Shown here: positions 4,542-17,765 of the stretch, one piece after another
How the letters are laid out: each line of letters begins with the position of its first letter
Numbering within the stretch: position 1 is the stretch's first letter
DNA from: Eledone cirrhosa
Taxonomy: Eukaryota
Assembly (NCBI GenBank): GCA_964016885.1
Contig: OZ024741.1
Location: forward strand, 152,582,001 to 152,646,000
Direction of reading: 5' to 3'
Length of the DNA stretch: 64,000 bases
Notes under the pieces: model-generated
The model's input: only the letters and a program-made list of their open reading frames with translations
What the model was told of the DNA's origin: nothing
The model's database searches: none
Translations under genes and position numbers: made by a program

Positions 4542-4752
4542 TAAACGGAATAGAAAATGCTGACAAATTGTTCACAGTTGAAAAATGGTTTAATTAGGAA
4601 TAAAAGAGTATTAGTGATTGTATGGGTTAGTATTCAGTTGTGGTTTTAAGTTTTTAAGTTTTTACCGGTTGCGCATTTCTAAATGCTTTTCAAAAATAAT
4701 TAAGAGAGTATTGAAGTTTGCTTGAAGCATTGTGGAACAATAAGTAAATATC

Positions 4753-5165
4753 TATAAGTCGTTTGGAAGCCTCGACAATGTAAATGGGTAACTCTCCGGG
4801 TAACAAGGTCCGGTGGTGGAGAGAGAGATGTAAGTGGGTGTACGTTGAGATGCGTGGTGTTTATAAGATGTGTGAGATGTGTAGAATGAAGGGGAGACAG
4901 ACAACCTTTTCCCCACCCCGGAAAAAACCCCAGTTGATGGATGTAAATCCGAAATATATAGGGACTTTTAAATCTCTCCCAAGGTAACTCTCTCTTGTGT
5001 TGTTATTATTATTTTTATCCTTTTACTCTCCCCTTCATTCTACACATCTCACACATCTTATAAACACCACGCATCTCAACGTACACCCACTTACATCTCT
5101 CTCTCCACCACCGGACCTTGTTACCCGGAGAGTTACCCATTTGCATTGTCGAGGCTTCCAAACGA

Positions 5166-5171
<6 letters not shown>
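4753..5171. repeat. Inverted repeat with 145-bp arms (4753-4897 / 5027-5171), probable PLE fold-back end
   Basis: Arms are reverse complements with one mismatch seen. The right arm abuts (TA)n and the spacer holds a decayed hammerhead motif at 4928-4963. Confidence 0.9.
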
Positions 5172-5219
<48 letters not shown>

Positions 5220-5225
<6 letters not shown>

Positions 5226-5591
5226 TAAAAGGAATTCCAACTTTGTCTGATTTACTCGTTTTATTTACAATCCTTTAAAATTTCTAATGGTATTATAATG
5301 AAATAGTATGGTAGAATATTAAATTCTAAGTGTTAATTGAACAAGTACTTTCATGCTTTCGCAATCTTCAGGTTCATAATATGTGGTGACAGTCAAGTTT
5401 GCAATTTTCGAAAATTGCAAACTTGACTGTCACCACACATTGAACCTGAAGATTGCGAAAGCATGAAAGTACTTGTTCAATTAACACTTAGAATTTAATA
5501 TTCTACCATACTATTTCATTATAATACCATTATAAATTTTAAAGGATTGTAAATAAAACGAGTAAATCAGACAAAGTTGGAATTCCTTTTA

Positions 5592-5595
<4 letters not shown>
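5220..5595. repeat. Near-perfect 375-bp palindrome between two (TA)n tracts
   Basis: Centre GCAATTTTCGAAAATTGC (5401-5418). The arms match out to ATTAATAAAAGGAATTCC / GGAATTCCTTTTATTAAT with about two substitutions and one 2-nt indel. Confidence 0.95.
5440..5480 (+). ncRNA. Minimal type I hammerhead ribozyme motif (mirror copy on the minus strand at 5337-5377)
   Basis: TTGAAC-CTGAAGA-T-TGC-GAAA-GCA-T-GAAA-GTAC-TT-GTTCAA: 6-bp stem I, CUGANGA core, GAAA-capped stem II, GAAA, palindromic stem III. The cleavage triplet CUU is suboptimal. Confidence 0.75.
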
Positions 5596-5642
<47 letters not shown>

Positions 5643-6130
5643 AAGTTTGTCCTTCATCAGTGGCCTTCCAACCGTCACAGGCATTTCATCGCTTTAAAGG
5701 CCATATACTTCAGGTTGGTGCGAGCAACGGCTAAAAAAAGTCGTTGAGACACGTAAATAAAGGGGACGCTAGGGTAAACAAACAAAATGGTTTAAGCAAC
5801 AGAAAGTGATGAAGAAAGAGACAAGTTCCAGATTTCTATGAATATAAATTCGGTGAAATCGTGAACGAGAGAATAAAGACCATCAAACCTGGTTGAAATG
5901 TGAGCAAGGAAGGAATTTCGCACAGGTCTAACGGGAGGAAGAAGGGGTCTGGTCTGCGAATTCGGTAAACATAAGTTCTGTGAAGTCGCAGACGAGAGAG
6001 AGAGAGAGAAAAAAAATTCATACTGGCTTGGCCAAGAACGCGCGAGAAAAGAATACTGAATCACGCACACACACACACGTACACACATATACACACATAC
6101 GTACACACACACACTTATATATCATTGAGA

Positions 6131-6292: not shown

Positions 6293-6544
6293 TTTCCTCT
6301 ATAACTCTTTCTCCTTTCCTCACTCCCATTTTCTATCTTTCTCTGGAAGAAATCTGTTGTACTCAGGCCTGGAGAGGGATGGGCTCCACCAGCCTCAAAA
6401 TGCCCAAGGAACGCCGTATGTCAATAGGACGCCCCTACGACTCTATCAGGAGTTACGGGTAACTTTTAAGGGACTAGTTATATTCAGTGATGAATTGGTT
6501 CCTGGGGGTGGGCGATAATTGTCAGTTTTTGAAACACTGTTTCC

Positions 6545-9500
6545 GCACCATCTACTGACCTCTACATTCCACCCCTTCCAAACCATCTACTGACCACTAC
6601 ATTACACCCCTTCCACACCATCTACTGACCACTACATTACACCCCTTCCTCACCCTCTACTGACCCCTACATTCCACCCCTTCCACACCATCTACTGACC
6701 ACTACATTCCACCCCTTCCACACCATCTACTGACCACTACATTACACCTCTTCCACACCATCTACTGACCACTACATTACACCCCTTCCAAACCATCTAC
6801 TGACCACTAGAATACACCCCTTCCACACCATCTACTGACCACTACATTACACCCCTTCCTCACCATCTACTGACCTCTACATTCCACCCCTTCCACACCA
6901 TCTACTGACCCCTACATTACACCCCTTCCACACCATCTACTGACCACTACATTACACCCCTTCCACACCATCTACTGACCACTACATTCAACCCCTTCCA
7001 GACCATCTACTGACCACTACATTACACCCCTTCCACACCATCTACTGACCATACATTCCACCTCTTCCTCACGATCTACTGACCACTATATTACACCCCT
7101 TCCACGCCATCTACTGACCCCTACATAACACCTCTTCCACACCATCTACTGACCACTACATTCCACCCCTTCCTCACCATCTACTGACCCCTAAATTCAA
7201 CCCCTGCCACACCATCTACTGACCACTACATTACACCCCTTCCACACCATCTACTGACCATACATTCCACCTCTTCCTCACGATCTACTGACCACTATAT
7301 TACACCCCTTCCACGCCATCTACTGACCCCTACATAACACCTCTTCCACACCATCTACTGACCACTACATTCCACCCCTGCCACACCATCTACTGACCAC
7401 TACATTACATCCCTTCCGCACCTTCTACTGACCCCTACATTACACCCCTTCCACACCATCTACTGACCACTACATTCCACCTCTTCCTCACCATCTACTG
7501 ACCACTACATTCCACTCCTTCCATACCAACTACTGACCCCTACATTACACCCCTTCCACACCATCTACTGAGCCCTACATTACACCCCTTCCACACCATT
7601 TACTGACCCCTACATTACACCTCTTCCACACCATCTACTGACCACTACTTTCCACTCCTTTCACACCATCTACTGACCCCTACATTACACCCCTTCCACA
7701 CCATCTACTGAGCCCTACATTACACCCCTTCCACACCATCTACTAACCACTACATTACAGCCCTTCCACACCATCTACTGACTCCTACATTCCACCCCTT
7801 CCACACCATTTACTGACCCCTACATTATACCCCTTCCACACCATCTACTGACCCCTACATTACACCCCTTCCACAACATCTACTGGCCACTACATTCCAC
7901 CCCTTCCACCATCTACTGACCCCTACATTCCACCCCTTCCACACCATCTACTGACCACTACATTACACACCTTCCACCATCTACTGACCCCTACATTCCA
8001 CCCCTTCCACCATCTACTGACCACTACATTCCACCCCTTCCACCATCTACTGACCCCTACATTCCACCCCTTCCACACCATCTATTGACCCCTACATTTC
8101 ACCCCTTCCACACCATCTACTGACCACTACATTCCACGCCTTCCACACCATCTACTGACCACTACATAGCACCCCTTCCACACCATCTACTGACCACTAC
8201 ATTACAGCCCTTCCACACCATCTACTGACCACTACATTACACCCCTTCCATACCAACTACTGACCCCTACATTACACCCCTTCCTCACCATCTACTGACC
8301 CCTACATTCCACCCCTTCCACACCATCTACTGACCACTACATTCCTCCCCTTCCACACCATCTACTGACCACTACATTCCTCCCCTTCCACACCATCTAC
8401 TGACCACTACATTACACCCCTTCCACACCATCTACTGACCACTACATTGCACCCCTTCCATACCAACTACTGACCCCTACATTACACCCCTTCCTCACCA
8501 TCTACTGACCCCTACATTACACCCCTTCCACACCATCTACTGACCCCTACATTACACCCATTCCACACCAACTACTGACCACTACATTACACCCCTTCCA
8601 CACCATGTACTGACCCTACATTCCACCTCTTCCTCACCATCTACTGACCAGTATATTACACCCCTTCCACACTATCTACTGACCCCTACATAACACCTGT
8701 TCCACACCATCAACTGACCACTACATTCCACCCCTTCCTCACCATCTACTGACCCTACATTCAACCCCTTCCACACCATCTACTGACCACTACATTACAT
8801 CCCTTCCCCACCATCTACTGACCCCTACATTACACCCCTTCCACACCATCTACTGACCACTATATTACACCCCTTCCTCACCATCTACTGACCTCTACAT
8901 TACACCCCTTCCACACCATCTACTGACCCCTACATTACACCCCTTCCACACCATCTACTGACCACTACATTCCACCTCTTCCTCACCATCTACTGACCAC
9001 TACATTACACCCCTTCCTCACCATCTACTGACCACTACATTACACCCCTCCCACACCATCTACTGACCACTACATTCCATCCCTTTCACACCATCTACTG
9101 ACCCCTACATTACACCCCTTCCACACCATCTACTGACCCCTACATTACACCCCTTCCACACCATCTACTGACCCCTACATTACACCCCTTCCACACCATC
9201 TACTGACCCCTACATTCCACCCCTTCCACACCATCTACTGACCACTACATTACAGCCCTTCCACACCATCTACTGACCACTACATTACACCCCTTCCATA
9301 CCAACTACTGACCCCTACATTACACCCCTTCCTCACCATCTACTGACCCCTACATTCCACCCCTTCCACGCCATCTACTGACCACTACCTTCCTCCCCTT
9401 CCACACCATCTACTTACCACTACATTACACCCCTTCCACACCATCTACTGACCACTACATTGCACCCCTTCCATACCAACTACTGACCCCTACATTACAC

Positions 9501-12500
9501 CCCTTCCTCACCATCTACTGACCCCTACATTACACCCCTTCCACACCATCTACTGACCACTACATTACACCCCTTCCACACCATTTACTGACCACTACAT
9601 TACAGCCCTTCCACACCAACTACTGACCACTACATTACACCCCTTCCACACCATCTACTGACCACTACATTACACCCCTTCCACACCATTTACTGACCAC
9701 TACATTACAGCCCTTCCACACCATCTACTGACCACTACATTCCACCCCTTCCACACCAACTACTGACCACTACATTACACCCCTTCCACACCATCTACTG
9801 ACCCTATCATTCCACCTCTTCCTCACCATCTACTGACCACTATATTACACCCCTTCCACACTATCTACTGACCCCTACATAACACCTCTTCCACACCATC
9901 TACTGACCACTACATTCCACCCCTTCCTCACCATCTACTGACCCCTACATTCAACCCCTTCCACACCATCTACTGACCCCTAAATTCAACCCCTGCCACA
10001 CCATCTACTGACCACTACATTACACCCCTTCCACACCATCTACTGACCATACATTCCACCTCTTCCTCACGATCTACTGACCACTATATTACACCCCTTC
10101 CACGCCATCTACTGACCCCTACATAACACCTCTTCCACACCATCTACTGACCACTACATTCCACCCCTTCCTCACCATCTACTGACCCCTAAATTCAACC
10201 CCTGCCACACCATCTACTGACCACTACATTACACCCCTTCCACACCATCTACTGACCATACATTCCACCTCTTCCTCACGATCTACTGACCACTATATTA
10301 CACCCCTTCCACGCCATCTACTGACCCCTACATAACACCTCTTCCACACCATCTACTGACCACTACATTCCACCCCTGCCACACCATCTACTGACCACTA
10401 CATTACATCCCTTCCGCACCTTCTACTGACCCCTACATTACACCCCTTCCACACCATCTACTGACCACTACATTCCACCTCTTCCTCACCATCTACTGAC
10501 CACTACATTCCACTCCTTCCATACCAACTACTGACCCCTACATTACACCCCTTCCACACCATCTACTGAGCCCTACATTACACCCCTTCCACACCATTTA
10601 CTGACCCCTACATTACACCTCTTCCACACCATCTACTGACCACTACTTTCCACTCCTTTCACACCATCTACTGACCCCTACATTACACCCCTTCCACACC
10701 ATCTACTGAGCCCTACATTACACCCCTTCCACACCATCTACTAACCACTACATTACAGCCCTTCCACACCATCTACTGACTCCTACATTCCACCCCTTCC
10801 ACACCATTTACTGACCCCTACATTATACCCCTTCCACACCATCTACTGACCCCTACATTACACCCCTTCCACAACATCTACTGGCCACTACATTCCACCC
10901 CTTCCACCATCTACTGACCCCTACATTCCACCCCTTCCACACCATCTACTGACCACTACATTACACACCTTCCACCATCTACTGACCCCTACATTCCACC
11001 CCTTCCACCATCTACTGACCACTACATTCCACCCCTTCCACCATCTACTGACCCCTACATTCCACCCCTTCCACACCATCTATTGACCCCTACATTTCAC
11101 CCCTTCCACACCATCTACTGACCACTACATTCCACGCCTTCCACACCATCTACTGACCACTACATAGCACCCCTTCCACACCATCTACTGACCACTACAT
11201 TACAGCCCTTCCACACCATCTACTGACCACTACATTACACCCCTTCCATACCAACTACTGACCCCTACATTACACCCCTTCCTCACCATCTACTGACCCC
11301 TACATTCCACCCCTTCCACACCATCTACTGACCACTACATTCCTCCCCTTCCACACCATCTACTGACCACTACATTCCTCCCCTTCCACACCATCTACTG
11401 ACCACTACATTACACCCCTTCCACACCATCTACTGACCACTACATTGCACCCCTTCCATACCAACTACTGACCCCTACATTACACCCCTTCCTCACCATC
11501 TACTGACCCCTACATTACACCCCTTCCACACCATCTACTGACCCCTACATTACACCCATTCCACACCAACTACTGACCACTACATTACACCCCTTCCACA
11601 CCATGTACTGACCCTACATTCCACCTCTTCCTCACCATCTACTGACCAGTATATTACACCCCTTCCACACTATCTACTGACCCCTACATAACACCTGTTC
11701 CACACCATCAACTGACCACTACATTCCACCCCTTCCTCACCATCTACTGACCCTACATTCAACCCCTTCCACACCATCTACTGACCACTACATTACATCC
11801 CTTCCCCACCATCTACTGACCCCTACATTACACCCCTTCCACACCATCTACTGACCACTATATTACACCCCTTCCTCACCATCTACTGACCTCTACATTA
11901 CACCCCTTCCACACCATCTACTGACCCCTACATTACACCCCTTCCACACCATCTACTGACCACTACATTCCACCTCTTCCTCACCATCTACTGACCACTA
12001 CATTACACCCCTTCCTCACCATCTACTGACCACTACATTACACCCCTCCCACACCATCTACTGACCACTACATTCCATCCCTTTCACACCATCTACTGAC
12101 CCCTACATTACACCCCTTCCACACCATCTACTGACCCCTACATTACACCCCTTCCACACCATCTACTGACCCCTACATTACACCCCTTCCACACCATCTA
12201 CTGACCCCTACATTCCACCCCTTCCACACCATCTACTGACCACTACATTACAGCCCTTCCACACCATCTACTGACCACTACATTACACCCCTTCCATACC
12301 AACTACTGACCCCTACATTACACCCCTTCCTCACCATCTACTGACCCCTACATTCCACCCCTTCCACGCCATCTACTGACCACTACCTTCCTCCCCTTCC
12401 ACACCATCTACTTACCACTACATTACACCCCTTCCACACCATCTACTGACCACTACATTGCACCCCTTCCATACCAACTACTGACCCCTACATTACACCC

Positions 12501-15500
12501 CTTCCTCACCATCTACTGACCCCTACATTACACCCCTTCCACACCATCTACTGACCACTACATTACACCCCTTCCACACCATTTACTGACCACTACATTA
12601 CAGCCCTTCCACACCAACTACTGACCACTACATTACACCCCTTCCACACCATCTACTGACCACTACATTACACCCCTTCCACACCATTTACTGACCACTA
12701 CATTACAGCCCTTCCACACCATCTACTGACCACTACATTCCACCCCTTCCACACCAACTACTGACCACTACATTACACCCCTTCCACACCATCTACTGAC
12801 CCTATCATTCCACCTCTTCCTCACCATCTACTGACCACTATATTACACCCCTTCCACACTATCTACTGACCCCTACATAACACCTCTTCCACACCATCTA
12901 CTGACCACTACATTCCACCCCTTCCTCACCATCTACTGACCCCTACATTCAACCCCTTCCACACCATCTACTGACCACTACATTACATCCCTTCCCCACC
13001 TTCTACTGACCCCTACATTACACCCCTTCCACACCATCTACTGACCCCTACATTACACCCCTTCCTCACCATCTACTGACCACTACATTACACCCCTTCC
13101 TCACCATCTACTGACCACTACATTACACCCCTTCCACACCATCTACTGACCACTACATTCCACCTCTTCCACACCATCTACTGACCCCTACATTACAGCC
13201 CTTCCACACCATCTACTGACCCCTACATTACAGACCTTCCACACCATCTACTGACCACTACATTCCATCCCTTCCACACCATCTACTGACCCCTACATTC
13301 TACTCCTTCCATACCAACAACTGACCCCTACATTACACCCCTTCCACACCATCTACTGACCTCTACATTACACCCCTTCCACACCATCTACTGACCCCTA
13401 CATTACACCCCTTCCACACCATCTACTGACCCCTACATTCTACTCCTTCCATACCAACAACTGACCCCTACATTACACCCCTTCCACACCATCTACTGAC
13501 CACTACATTCCACCCCTTCCACACCATCTACTGACCACTACATTCCTCCCCTTCCACACCATCTACTGACCACTACATTACACCCCTTCCACACCATCTA
13601 CTGACCCTATCATTCCACCTCTCCCTCACCATCTACTGACCACTATATTACACCCCTTCCACTCTATCTACTGACCCCTACATAACACCTCTTCCACACC
13701 ATCTACTGACCACTACATTCCACCCCTTCCTCACCATCTACTGACCACTACATTACACCCCTTCCACACCATCTACTGACCCTATCATTCCACCTCTCCC
13801 TCACCATCTACTGACCACTATATTACACCCCTTCCACTCTATCTACTGACCCCTACATAACACCTCTTCCACACCATCTACTGACCCCTACATTACACCC
13901 CTTCCACACCATCTACTGACCACTACATTACACCCCTTCCACACCATCTACTGACCACTACATTACATCCCTTCCCCACCTTCTACTGACCCCTACATTA
14001 CACCCCTTCCACACCATCTACTGACCACTACATTACACCCCTTCCTCACCATCTACTGACCTCTACATTACACCCCTTCCACACCGTCTACTGACCCCTA
14101 CATTACACCCCTTCCACACCATCTACTGACCACTACGTTCCACCTCTTCCTCACCATCTACTGACCACTACATTCCATCCCGTCCACACCATCTACTGAC
14201 CCCTACATTCTACTCCTTCCATACCAACTACTGACCCCTACATTACACCCCTTCCACACCATCTACTGACCCCTACATTACACCCCTTCCACACCATCTA
14301 CTGACCCCTACATTACACCCATTCCACACCATCTACTGACCCCTACATAACAACCCTTCCACACCATCTACTGACCACTACATTCCACCCCTTCCACACC
14401 ATCTACTGACCACTACATTGCACCCCTTCCATACCAACTACTGTCCCCTACATTACACCCATTCCTCACCATCTACTGACCCCTACATTACACCCCTTCC
14501 ACACCATCTACTGACCACTACATTCCACCCCTTCCACACCATCTACTGACCACTACATTACACCCCTTCCACACCATCTACTGACCACTACATTCCACCC
14601 ATTCCTCACCATCTACTGACCCCTACATTACACCCCTTCCACACCATCTACTGACCACTACATTACACCCCTTCCACACCATCTACTGACCTCTACATTA
14701 CAGCCCTTCCACACCATCTACTGACCACTACATTCCACCCCTTCCACACAATCTACTGACCACTATATTACACCCCTTCCACACCATCTACTGACCACTA
14801 CATTCCACCCCTTCCTCACCATCTACTGACCCCTACATTCAACCCCTTCCACACTATCTACTGACGACGACATTCCACCCCTTCCACACCATCTACTGAC
14901 CACTACATTACAGCCCTTCCACACCATCTACTAACCACTACATTACATCCCTTCCTCACCATCTACTGACCCCTACATTCCACCCCTTCCACACCATCTA
15001 CTGACCACTACATTCCTCCCCTTCCACACCATCTACTGACCACTACATTACACCCCTTCCACACCATCTACTGACCACTACATTGCACCCCTTCCATACC
15101 AACTACTGACCCCTACATTGCACCCCTTCCATACCATCTACTGACCCCTACATTACACCCCGTCCACACCATCTACTGACCACTACATTACACCACTTCC
15201 ACACCATCTACTGACCACTACATTACAGCCCTTCCACACCATCTACTGACCACTACATTCCACCCCTTCCACACTATCTACTGACCACTACATTACAGCC
15301 CTTCCACACCATCTACTGACCCTTCATTCCACCTCTTCCTCACCATCTACTGACCACTATATTACACCCCTTCCACACCATCTACTGACCCCTACATAAC
15401 ACCTCTTCCACACCATCTACTGACCACTACATTCCACCCCTTCCTCACCATCTACTGACCCCTACATTCAACCCCTTCCACACCATCTACTGACCGCTAC

Positions 15501-17765
15501 ATTACATCCCTTCCCCACCTTCTACTGACCCCTATATTACACCCCTTCCACACCATCTACTGACCACTATATTACACCCCTTCCTCACCATCTACTGACC
15601 TCTACATTACACCCCTTCCACACCATCTAATGACCCCTACATTACACCCCTTCCACACCATCTACTGACCACTACATTCCACCTCTTCCTCACCATCTAC
15701 TGACCACTACATTACACCCCTACCTCACCATCTACTGACCACTACATTACACCCCTTCCACACCATCTACTGACCATTACATTCCACCTCTTCCACACCA
15801 TCTACTGACCCCTACATTCCACCTCTTCCTCAGCATCTACTGACCACTATATTACACCCCTTCCACACCATCTACTGACCCCTACATAACACCTCTTCCA
15901 CACCATCTACTGACCACTACATTCCACCCCTTCCTCACCATCTACTGACCCCTACATTCAACCCCTTCCACACCATCTACTGACCGCTACATTACATCCC
16001 TTCCCCACCTTCTACTGACCCCTATATTACACCCCTTCCACACCATCTACTGACCTCTACATTACACCCCTTCCACACCATCTAATGACCCCTACATTAC
16101 ACCCCTTCCACACCATCTACTGACCACTACATTCCACCTCTTCCTCACCATCTACTGACCACTACATTACACCCCTACCTCACCATCTACTGACCACTAC
16201 ATTACACCCCTTCCACACCATCTACTGACCATTACATTCCACCTCTTCCACACCATCTACTGACCCCTACATTCCATCCCTTCCACACCATCTACTGACC
16301 ACTACATTACAGCCCTTCCACACCATCTACTGACCACTACATTATACCCCTTCCACACCATCTACTGACCACTACATTCCACCCCTTCCACCATCTACTG
16401 ACCCCTACATTCCACCCCTTCCACACCATTTACTGACCACTACATTACCCCCCTTCCACAACATCTACTGACCACTACATTCCACCCCTTCCACCATCTA
16501 CTGACCCCTACATTCCACCCCTTCCACACCATCTACTGACCACTACATTCCACCCCTTCCACCATCTACTGAGCCCTACATTCCACCCCTTCCACACCAT
16601 CTACTGACCACTACATTCCACCCCTTCCACCATCTACTGACCCATACATTCCACCCCTTCCACACCATCTATTGACCCATACATTCCACCCCTTCCACAC
16701 CATCTACTGACCCCTACATTCCACCCCTTCCACACCATCTACTGACCACTACATTACAGCCCTTCCACACCATCTACTGACTACTACATTACACCCCTTC
16801 CATACCAACTACTGACCCCTACATTACACCCCTTCCTCACCATCTACTGACCCCTACATTCCACCCCTTCCACACCATCTACTGATCCCTACATTCCACG
16901 CCTTCCACACCATCTACTGACCACTACATTCCACCCCTTCCACACCATCTACTGACCACAACATTACACCCCTTCCACACCATCTACTGACCACTACATT
17001 GCACCCCTTCCATACCAACTACTGACCCCTACATTACACCCCTTCCTCACCATCTACTGACCCCTACATTACACCCCTTCCACACCATCTACTGACCACT
17101 ATATTGCACGCCTTCCATACCAACTACTGACCACTACATTCCACCCCTTCCACACCATCTACTGACCACTACATTACACCCCTTCCACACCATCTACTGA
17201 CCCCTACATTCCACCCCTTCCACACCATCTACTAACCACTACATTCCACCCCTTCCACACCATCTACTGACCCCTACATTCCACCCCTTCCATACCAACT
17301 ACTGACCCCTACATTCCACCCCTACATTCCACCCCTTCCACACCATCTACTAACCATTACATTCCACCCCTTCCACACCATCTACTGACCACTACATTGC
17401 ACCCCTTCCATACCAACTACTGACCCCTACATTACACCCCTTCCTCACCATCTACTGACCCCTACATTACACCCCTTCCACACCATCTACTGACCACTAT
17501 ATTACACCTGTTCCTCACCATCTACTGACCACTATATTACACCCCTTCCACACCATCTACTGACCACTACATTATACCCCTTCCACACCATCTACTGACC
17601 CCTACATTCCACCCCTTCCATACCAACTACTGACCCCTACATTCCACCCCTTCCACACCATCTACTAACCACTACATTCCACCCCTTCCACACCATCTAC
17701 TGACCCCTACATTCCACCCCTTCCACACCATCTACTGACCAGTACATTACACCCCTTCCACACCA
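6545..17765. repeat. 35-bp satellite array, about 320 units, consensus CCATCTACTGACCACTACATTACACCCCTTCCACA
   Basis: Continuous tandem repetition over about 11.2 kb with C-rich/G-rich strand asymmetry. Confidence 0.98.

What the first reader, a model, noticed from the sequence alone, without database searches (positions are those of the whole stretch)
5220..5595. Ribozyme-armed 375-bp palindrome inserted in (TA)n
Seen: a loop-less, near-perfect palindrome between two (TA)n tracts, with a minimal hammerhead motif on each arm (5440-5480 plus, 5337-5377 minus) and no coding sequence. Established: PLEs carry minimal type I hammerheads in their terminal repeats, often insert with inverted 5' segments and favour microsatellites. 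Inference: this is either an extreme fold-back PLE insertion or a non-autonomous, retrozyme-like unit that reads the same from both strands. A transcript would form an about 185-bp dsRNA that sequesters the ribozyme and would be a strong ADAR or small-RNA substrate.
Basis: partly seen in the sequence, partly recalled or inferred. Interest (0 to 1): 0.75.

Follow-up and report, generated by a model that had tools for sequence, protein, structure and literature searches.

The report
Head-to-head Penelope retrotransposon run-off stub
This 375-base mirror-image DNA is two copies of the end of a common ribozyme-carrying jumping gene joined head to head, a layout already known for such elements; about a thousand sister copies share the same joint, which likely records two DNA copies made from one RNA and stuck together at their tips.

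Summary
The palindrome (centre 5409/5410, two substitutions and one 2-nt gap) and both minimal hammerhead motifs are real. Each arm is the last ~190 nt of the terminal repeat (pLTR) of a 4.2-kb Penelope-like element with RT and GIY-YIG domains, found in the same genome. The hammerhead motif occurs 5,459 times. Inverted pairs vary in spacing, but 961 joints sit at one spot, 31 nt behind a TATA box (predicted transcription start). Sister copies are not symmetric: 99 of 107 two-armed copies have a tail on one side only, the known Penelope layout. The window copy is a rare variant without tail or centre loop (4 of 961 are loop-less). Arms come from one source (72 discordant sites against 432 expected), and the centre base points either way relative to the tail (43:40), against a self-propagating unit and against simple fold-back. 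Best reading: two reverse transcriptases likely copy one RNA to its 5' end, and the cDNA tips anneal. Transcription, cleavage and editing are untested. This scan has reported the same kind of insert, and this model, on other DNA. Known architecture; modest mechanistic value.

The parts
5168..5222 (.). (TA)n target tract, left; shared with the neighbouring inverted insert
5219..5409 (-). Left arm: last ~190 nt of the pLTR of the parent Penelope-like element, 3' end pointing outward, no tail
   Evidence: 94.4% identity over 195 columns to the end of the L061 unit
5337..5377 (-). Minimal type I hammerhead motif of the left arm (5-bp helix I)
5404..5415 (.). Loop-less head-to-head joint (centre 5409/5410); lacks the 7-nt centre of most sisters; likely joined through a self-complementary TCGA
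   Evidence: 4 of 961 joints are loop-less; mechanism inferred
5410..5598 (+). Right arm: last ~190 nt of the same pLTR, 3' end pointing outward, no tail
   Evidence: 93.8% identity over 195 columns
5440..5480 (+). Minimal type I hammerhead motif of the right arm; predicted cut after 5474
5595..5638 (.). (TA)n target tract, right

Best explanation
The palindrome is two copies of the last ~190 nt of a Penelope-like element's terminal repeat joined head to head in a TA microsatellite, and it was likely made in one insertion event when both cut target ends primed reverse transcription on the same element RNA and both cDNAs ran off its 5' end and annealed. Shown: arm identity to the parent pLTR, the parent's RT and GIY-YIG domains, the family-wide one-sided tail, the shared joint position, the common source of the two arms, and the unbiased centre polarity. 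From published work on another Penelope element (PMC11167929): both strands are cut and extended, and RT starts at two adjacent internal RNA sites whose interval is the tail. Inferred: the RNA starts at the A of ACAGT, 31 nt behind TATAAAAG, so a pLTR-initiated transcript gives ~200-nt and ~250-nt cDNAs; their 3' ends (ACTGT) pair as 4 bp around a T.T mismatch that is repaired either way. The window copy likely had both primings at the tail-less site (or lost the tail by deletion between TA runs) and joined through TCGA, which removed the loop. The hammerheads are likely passengers: any read-through RNA is predicted to be one long hairpin that blocks them.
For: Parent: 4.2-kb unit between direct pLTRs in L061 and L062, RVT_1 E 6.5e-7 and GIY-YIG E 2.4e-6. 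Family size: 5,459 exact hammerhead matches; 961 joints at this position, 503 with the exact 7-nt centre, 1,373 arms with native upstream sequence, 1,082 further matches with C or G directly before ACAGTT. 5' ends: 19 of the first 30 hammerhead-bearing arms stop at -202..-189, 9 run further upstream, 2 are shorter. TATAAAAG at -231, A of ACAGT at -200, CCAAT boxes at -369, -330, -293. Tail: 99 of 107 two-armed copies one tail, 7 none, 1 both. One source: 72 discordant of 1,063 comparisons at 12 diagnostic columns against 432 expected (89 of 107 copies aligned), 28 private changes present in both arms. Polarity 43:40, p 0.83 against 1:1; 12:10 in copies with 0-1 arm differences; both polarities in all four main sub-types. 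Joints carry varied microhomologies and short templated inserts. Hammerhead core no better conserved than the rest: 6/672 against 86/10,115 (31 of 33 copies). Helix I and II pair probability 0.54-0.63 in one arm, 0.0 in the whole palindrome.
Against: The transcription start is predicted from motifs and insertion ends only; no raw RNA reads were offered. The window copy itself has neither the tail nor the 7-nt centre on which the model rests, so its history is extrapolated from sisters; only about 3 of 107 two-armed copies are cleanly tail-less. Arms disagree often at arm positions 29 and 33 (16 of 88, 16 of 86), which one template does not explain; the window copy differs there too. Shared private changes could also come from arm-to-arm gene conversion, and 1:1 polarity from later recombination between arms. 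Position-ordered samples come from contigs 1 and 2 only and need exact-match patterns; the top-scoring set is biased toward good palindromes.
Confidence: 0.72

Rival explanations
1. Fold-back or self-priming: one cDNA (or an antisense RNA, as proposed in PMC3846280) folds at its end and copies itself, giving the second arm; later recombination between the arms flips the centre.
For: Explains arms from one source. A hairpin is predicted at the RNA 5' end, and some joints contain sequence that matches the inner side of that hairpin (L029). PMC3846280 (passages) reads junction palindromes as self-priming.
Against: A self-copied cDNA fixes the centre base relative to the tail; 43:40 was seen, and 12:10 in the least diverged copies. 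Blunt joints with both arms ending at -200/-199 and short inserts between them need two ends. One-arm private changes (98) outnumber shared ones (28), so arms are not being homogenised fast.
Confidence: 0.17
2. A self-propagating non-autonomous unit (retrozyme-like or MITE-like) that is copied as a whole palindrome.
For: About a thousand copies share size and centre; animal retrozymes are reported to derive from pLTRs (10.64898/2026.07.22.740005, passages).
Against: One-sided tail in 99 of 107; both polarities in every main sub-type; heterogeneous joints; a continuum with solo arms and inverted inserts up to kilobases; the three two-armed loop-less copies belong to different sub-types; the unit lacks the TATA box; no selection on the hammerhead core; no head-to-tail array of the unit among the loci read.
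Confidence: 0.06
3. Assembly or library chimera (fold-back read) at this locus.
For: This copy is unusually symmetric (no loop, no tail); no read spanning this joint was seen.
Against: The arms differ at three places; the flanks are different sequences; the centre coincides with a family-wide hotspot and three other loci have the same loop-less joint; sisters carry a one-sided tail that a chimera would not produce.
Confidence: 0.03
4. A domesticated hairpin kept by the host as a dsRNA, small-RNA or ADAR substrate.
For: Predicted -281 kcal/mol hairpin. A>G is somewhat commoner among both-arm changes (7 of 28) than one-arm changes (10 of 98), p 0.059.
Against: One of about a thousand similar inserts in a repeat-dense region; no host exon or transcript shown; the A>G trend is not significant and would concern the parent RNA, not this copy.
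Confidence: 0.02

Closest known systems
Insertion unit of endonuclease-positive Penelope-like elements: pLTR, adjacent inverted 5'-truncated copy, one-sided 30-40-bp tail (PMC8557442 passages; PMC3846280 passages)
   Same: Head-to-head arms with 3' ends outward, one-sided tail in sisters, (TA)n target, TATA plus initiator in the pLTR, hammerhead in the pLTR, palindrome at the joint.
   Different: Here the commonest joint sits at one position in ~961 copies; the window copy lacks tail and loop; the tail is about 45-60 nt.
PAc (Poseidon of Anolis carolinensis) in vitro mechanism (PMC11167929, parts 1-2 of 4 read)
   Same: AT-rich target, both strands extended, two adjacent internal RT start sites bounding an AC-rich tail, hammerhead not needed for insertion.
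   Different: The parent here has the CX4CX2C linker of Neptune/Nematis type; the parts read do not address how the inverted copy is joined.
Minimal hammerheads of metazoan PLEs (PMC4209133, parts 1-2 of 4 read)
   Same: Type I core, short helix I, palindromic helix III; that paper already notes dual motifs 100-700 bp apart on opposite strands; single motifs were inactive in vitro.
   Different: Helix II is only 3 bp and lacks the G10.1-C11.1 pair reported as highly conserved.
Non-LTR retrozymes (PMC7229834 passages; 10.64898/2026.07.22.740005 passages)
   Same: Small, non-coding, type I hammerhead, pLTR-related.
   Different: Retrozymes are head-to-tail tandem repeats giving circular RNA; this is head-to-head with one motif per strand.
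Twin priming of L1 elements (recalled, no call)
   Same: Both target ends prime cDNA on one RNA and give an inversion.
   Different: In L1 the two parts do not overlap; here both arms copy the same 200 nt.

Membership tests
EN+ Penelope-like element (Neptune/Nematis type) | RT followed by C-terminal GIY-YIG endonuclease in the parent | tested here: met
   L061: RVT_1 and GIY-YIG above Pfam cut-offs
EN+ Penelope-like element (Neptune/Nematis type) | Direct pLTRs around the ORF, arm identical to pLTR | tested here: met
   arms 94% identical to the pLTR end
EN+ Penelope-like element (Neptune/Nematis type) | Adjacent inverted 5'-truncated copy | tested here: met
   L061-L063, L065-L068 and many short copies
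EN+ Penelope-like element (Neptune/Nematis type) | Optional one-sided tail | tested here: met
   99 of 107 two-armed sisters; absent in the window copy, the papers call it optional
EN+ Penelope-like element (Neptune/Nematis type) | CX2-5CxxC linker upstream of GIY-YIG | tested here: met
   CX4CX2C in the translations of L061-L063; feature from PMC8557442
EN+ Penelope-like element (Neptune/Nematis type) | Single uninterrupted ORF | tested here: inconclusive
   L061 and L062 are in pieces and share a frame change after the first 476-codon stretch
Neptune versus Nematis clade | RT phylogeny | not tested
   no named reference sequences were fetched; no solved-structure match
Minimal type I hammerhead | CUGANGA, GAAA, UH, helices I and II, palindromic helix III | tested here: met
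Minimal type I hammerhead | G10.1-C11.1 pair closing helix II | tested here: not met
   U5453 and U5464 flank a 3-bp stem
Minimal type I hammerhead | Self-cleavage | not testable with these tools
   needs an in vitro assay
Non-LTR retrozyme | Head-to-tail tandem units, each with a hammerhead | tested here: not met
   head-to-head
Non-LTR retrozyme | Circular RNA | not testable with these tools
   no raw RNA runs offered
MITE / fold-back DNA transposon | Symmetric terminal inverted repeats derived from a DNA transposon, moved as a unit | tested here: not met
   ends are asymmetric in 99 of 107 and arms derive from a retroelement

The most novel reading that the evidence does not exclude
The thousand fixed-centre palindromes are a frozen record of the Penelope insertion intermediate: two reverse transcriptases copy one RNA from two start sites to its 5' end, and the two cDNA tips pair through ACTGT/ACTGT around a T.T mismatch that is repaired at random. 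This would replace self-priming on an antisense template as the origin of Penelope's head-to-head repeats and would map the promoter to the base from DNA alone.
Probability: 0.55. Interest if true: 0.5.

Novelty: new member of a known kind. Interest (0 to 1): 0.3.

Why it matters
As a sequence it is an ordinary retroelement stub. Its value lies in the family: how Penelope-like elements make inverted repeats is described as unresolved (PMC8557442 passages; PMC3846280 proposes self-priming). The 43:40 centre polarity and the pile-up of ends 31 nt behind a TATA box give a sharp prediction for the existing in vitro system (PMC11167929). The family also scatters about a thousand potential 190-bp hairpins through the genome, which would be dsRNA substrates if transcribed; that is untested.

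Tried and rejected
Rfam scans: no hammerhead family hit; miRNA hits are below threshold and reflect simple repeats or hairpins. Folding z-scores: no support for the motif on energy. PDB search with the RT-EN fragment: 0 hits. Cap-templated G at the 5' end: among the 30 loci read, G before ACAGTT mostly comes from the opposite arm, so the test was uninformative. First tail classification was wrong because the aligner ran into (TA)n; replaced. First helix I probabilities were mis-indexed; replaced. A genome-wide count of tail-less copies could not be made; samples stand in. Literature searches: hammerhead ribozyme, Penelope, palindrom, octopus; the last term was a guess from memory, no call names the organism; Penelope, twin priming, inverted, pLTR: no PLE paper listed uses 'twin priming'; Penelope-like, head-to-head, reverse transcription, palindrom: one plant review, listing only. 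Subscription papers, Repbase/Dfam entries and all supplements were not seen and may already describe this family or model.

Full report
Observation. The sequence between two perfect (TA)n tracts (5168-5222, 5595-5638) is a loop-less palindrome centred on 5409/5410. The arms differ by two substitutions and one 2-nt gap. Each arm holds a minimal type I hammerhead motif. Rfam does not detect it, it folds no better than shuffles, and it lacks the G10.1-C11.1 pair. No ATG ORF of 50 aa overlaps it.

Family and parent. The window lies in a 3.0-Gb assembly. All 40 scored candidates of 300 were full palindromes, a set biased by the query. An unbiased pattern for the hammerhead gave 5,459 exact matches; among the first 100, opposite-strand pairs are spaced from 94 to about 4,000 bases, most often 115. 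[quoted passage not shown] The window arms match the last 195 columns of this unit at 94%. The palindrome is therefore two pLTR ends, 3' ends outward.

The fixed centre. 961 sites have a head-to-head joint at this position with 0-12 letters between the arms; 503 have the exact centre AACAGTT; only 4, the window among them, have none. 1,373 arms keep the native upstream sequence. Of the first 30 hammerhead-bearing arms, 19 stop at -202..-189 relative to the pLTR end, solo or inverted, 9 extend further and 2 are shorter. In the parent, TATAAAAG starts at -231 and the A of ACAGT is at -200, with CCAAT boxes further up. A 31-nt TATA-to-start distance is typical of polymerase II promoters (own knowledge), and PMC3846280 (passages) notes TATA and initiator motifs in pLTRs. 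I infer that -200 is the RNA 5' end; this is not measured.

The tail. In three samples (50 position-ordered sites; 60 further sites; 36 of the other 39 top hits, of which 6 had no matching centre and were left out; one locus shared), 107 copies have two full arms: 99 have a tail on one arm, 7 on neither, 1 on both. Of the 7, two keep part of the tail and two are broken at the arm end, so about 3 resemble the window copy. PMC8557442 (passages) describes the inverted truncated copy and the one-sided tail as typical; PMC4209133 (parts 1-2 of 4) already reports dual minimal hammerheads on opposite strands. PMC11167929 (parts 1-2 of 4) shows in vitro that a Penelope protein cuts and extends both strands of AT-rich DNA, starts RT at two adjacent internal sites that bound the tail, and does not need the hammerhead.

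How the arms arise. At 12 diagnostic columns the two arms of a copy disagree 72 times in 1,063 comparisons, against 432 for random pairing (89 of 107 copies; 18 dropped for arm length), and 28 private changes occur in both arms against 98 in one: one source for both arms, or conversion. If one cDNA folded back, the centre would have a fixed direction relative to the tail. It does not: 43 against 40, 12 against 10 in the least diverged copies, both forms in each main sub-type. Two cDNA ends reading ACTGT can pair antiparallel with four base pairs around a T.T mismatch, whose repair gives either form (inference). Other joints are blunt, with both arms ending at -200/-199, or carry short templated inserts. 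A sequence variant with GTCGA occurs at this spot; its self-complementary TCGA would give the window's loop-less joint (inference). Against this reading: arms disagree often at positions 29 and 33, unexplained; recombination between arms could also randomise the centre; the window copy lacks both diagnostic features.

Function. The hammerhead core is no better conserved than the rest of the arm (6/672 against 86/10,115; 31 of 33 copies, 2 dropped as misaligned). A read-through RNA is predicted to form a -281 kcal/mol hairpin in which the ribozyme helices have probability 0.0, against 0.54-0.63 in one arm. The unit lacks the TATA box. No RNA evidence could be laid; DNA reads show the family but not the joint. 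A>G is slightly enriched among both-arm changes (7 of 28 against 10 of 98, p 0.059).

Comparison and verdict. It is an insertion stub of an EN+ Penelope-like element. It is not a retrozyme (no head-to-tail array; PMC7229834 and 10.64898/2026.07.22.740005, passages) and not a MITE. Earlier notes of this scan describe the same layout in this and other genomes and the two-RT run-off model; they are leads, not support, and they gave me two of the papers and the term run-off. Searches did not list a paper that states this joining model for Penelope elements; supplements and subscription papers were not seen. Novelty: new member of a known kind. Interest 0.3.

Noticed in passing
window 4701-5168: A second, unrelated repeat family with the same layout (inverted arms 4740-4897 and 5027-5184, 3' ends outward, ~40-nt extension on one side, TA targets; 2,657 candidates). 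Likely another Penelope-like stub; parent not sought.
   Followed up: partly
window 5639-5730 (-): Repeat end abutting the right TA tract with a hammerhead-like but non-canonical core at 5713; a similar sequence flanks L016.
   Followed up: no
window 41520-41565 (+): Third minimal hammerhead motif with palindromic helix III, of another family.
   Followed up: no
window 48041-48304 (-): Remnant of a Penelope-like RT, 33% identical to the parent over 96 aa.
   Followed up: no
L061:3628-3718 and L062:3638-3728: Both near-full copies change frame at the same place between a 476-codon N-terminal stretch and the RT part: a shared lesion or a two-ORF layout.
   Followed up: no
arm positions 29-33 (window 5438-5442 and 5377-5381): A short stretch just 5' of hammerhead helix I is the most variable in the family and often differs between the two arms of one copy, while flanking markers agree. 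Unexplained.
   Followed up: partly
window 6541-17765: 11-kb satellite of a 35-nt unit, 321 copies, with strong strand skew.
   Followed up: no
L172: Only copy with tail sequence on both arms; the tail is repeated in tandem there, as if RT restarted several times.
   Followed up: no
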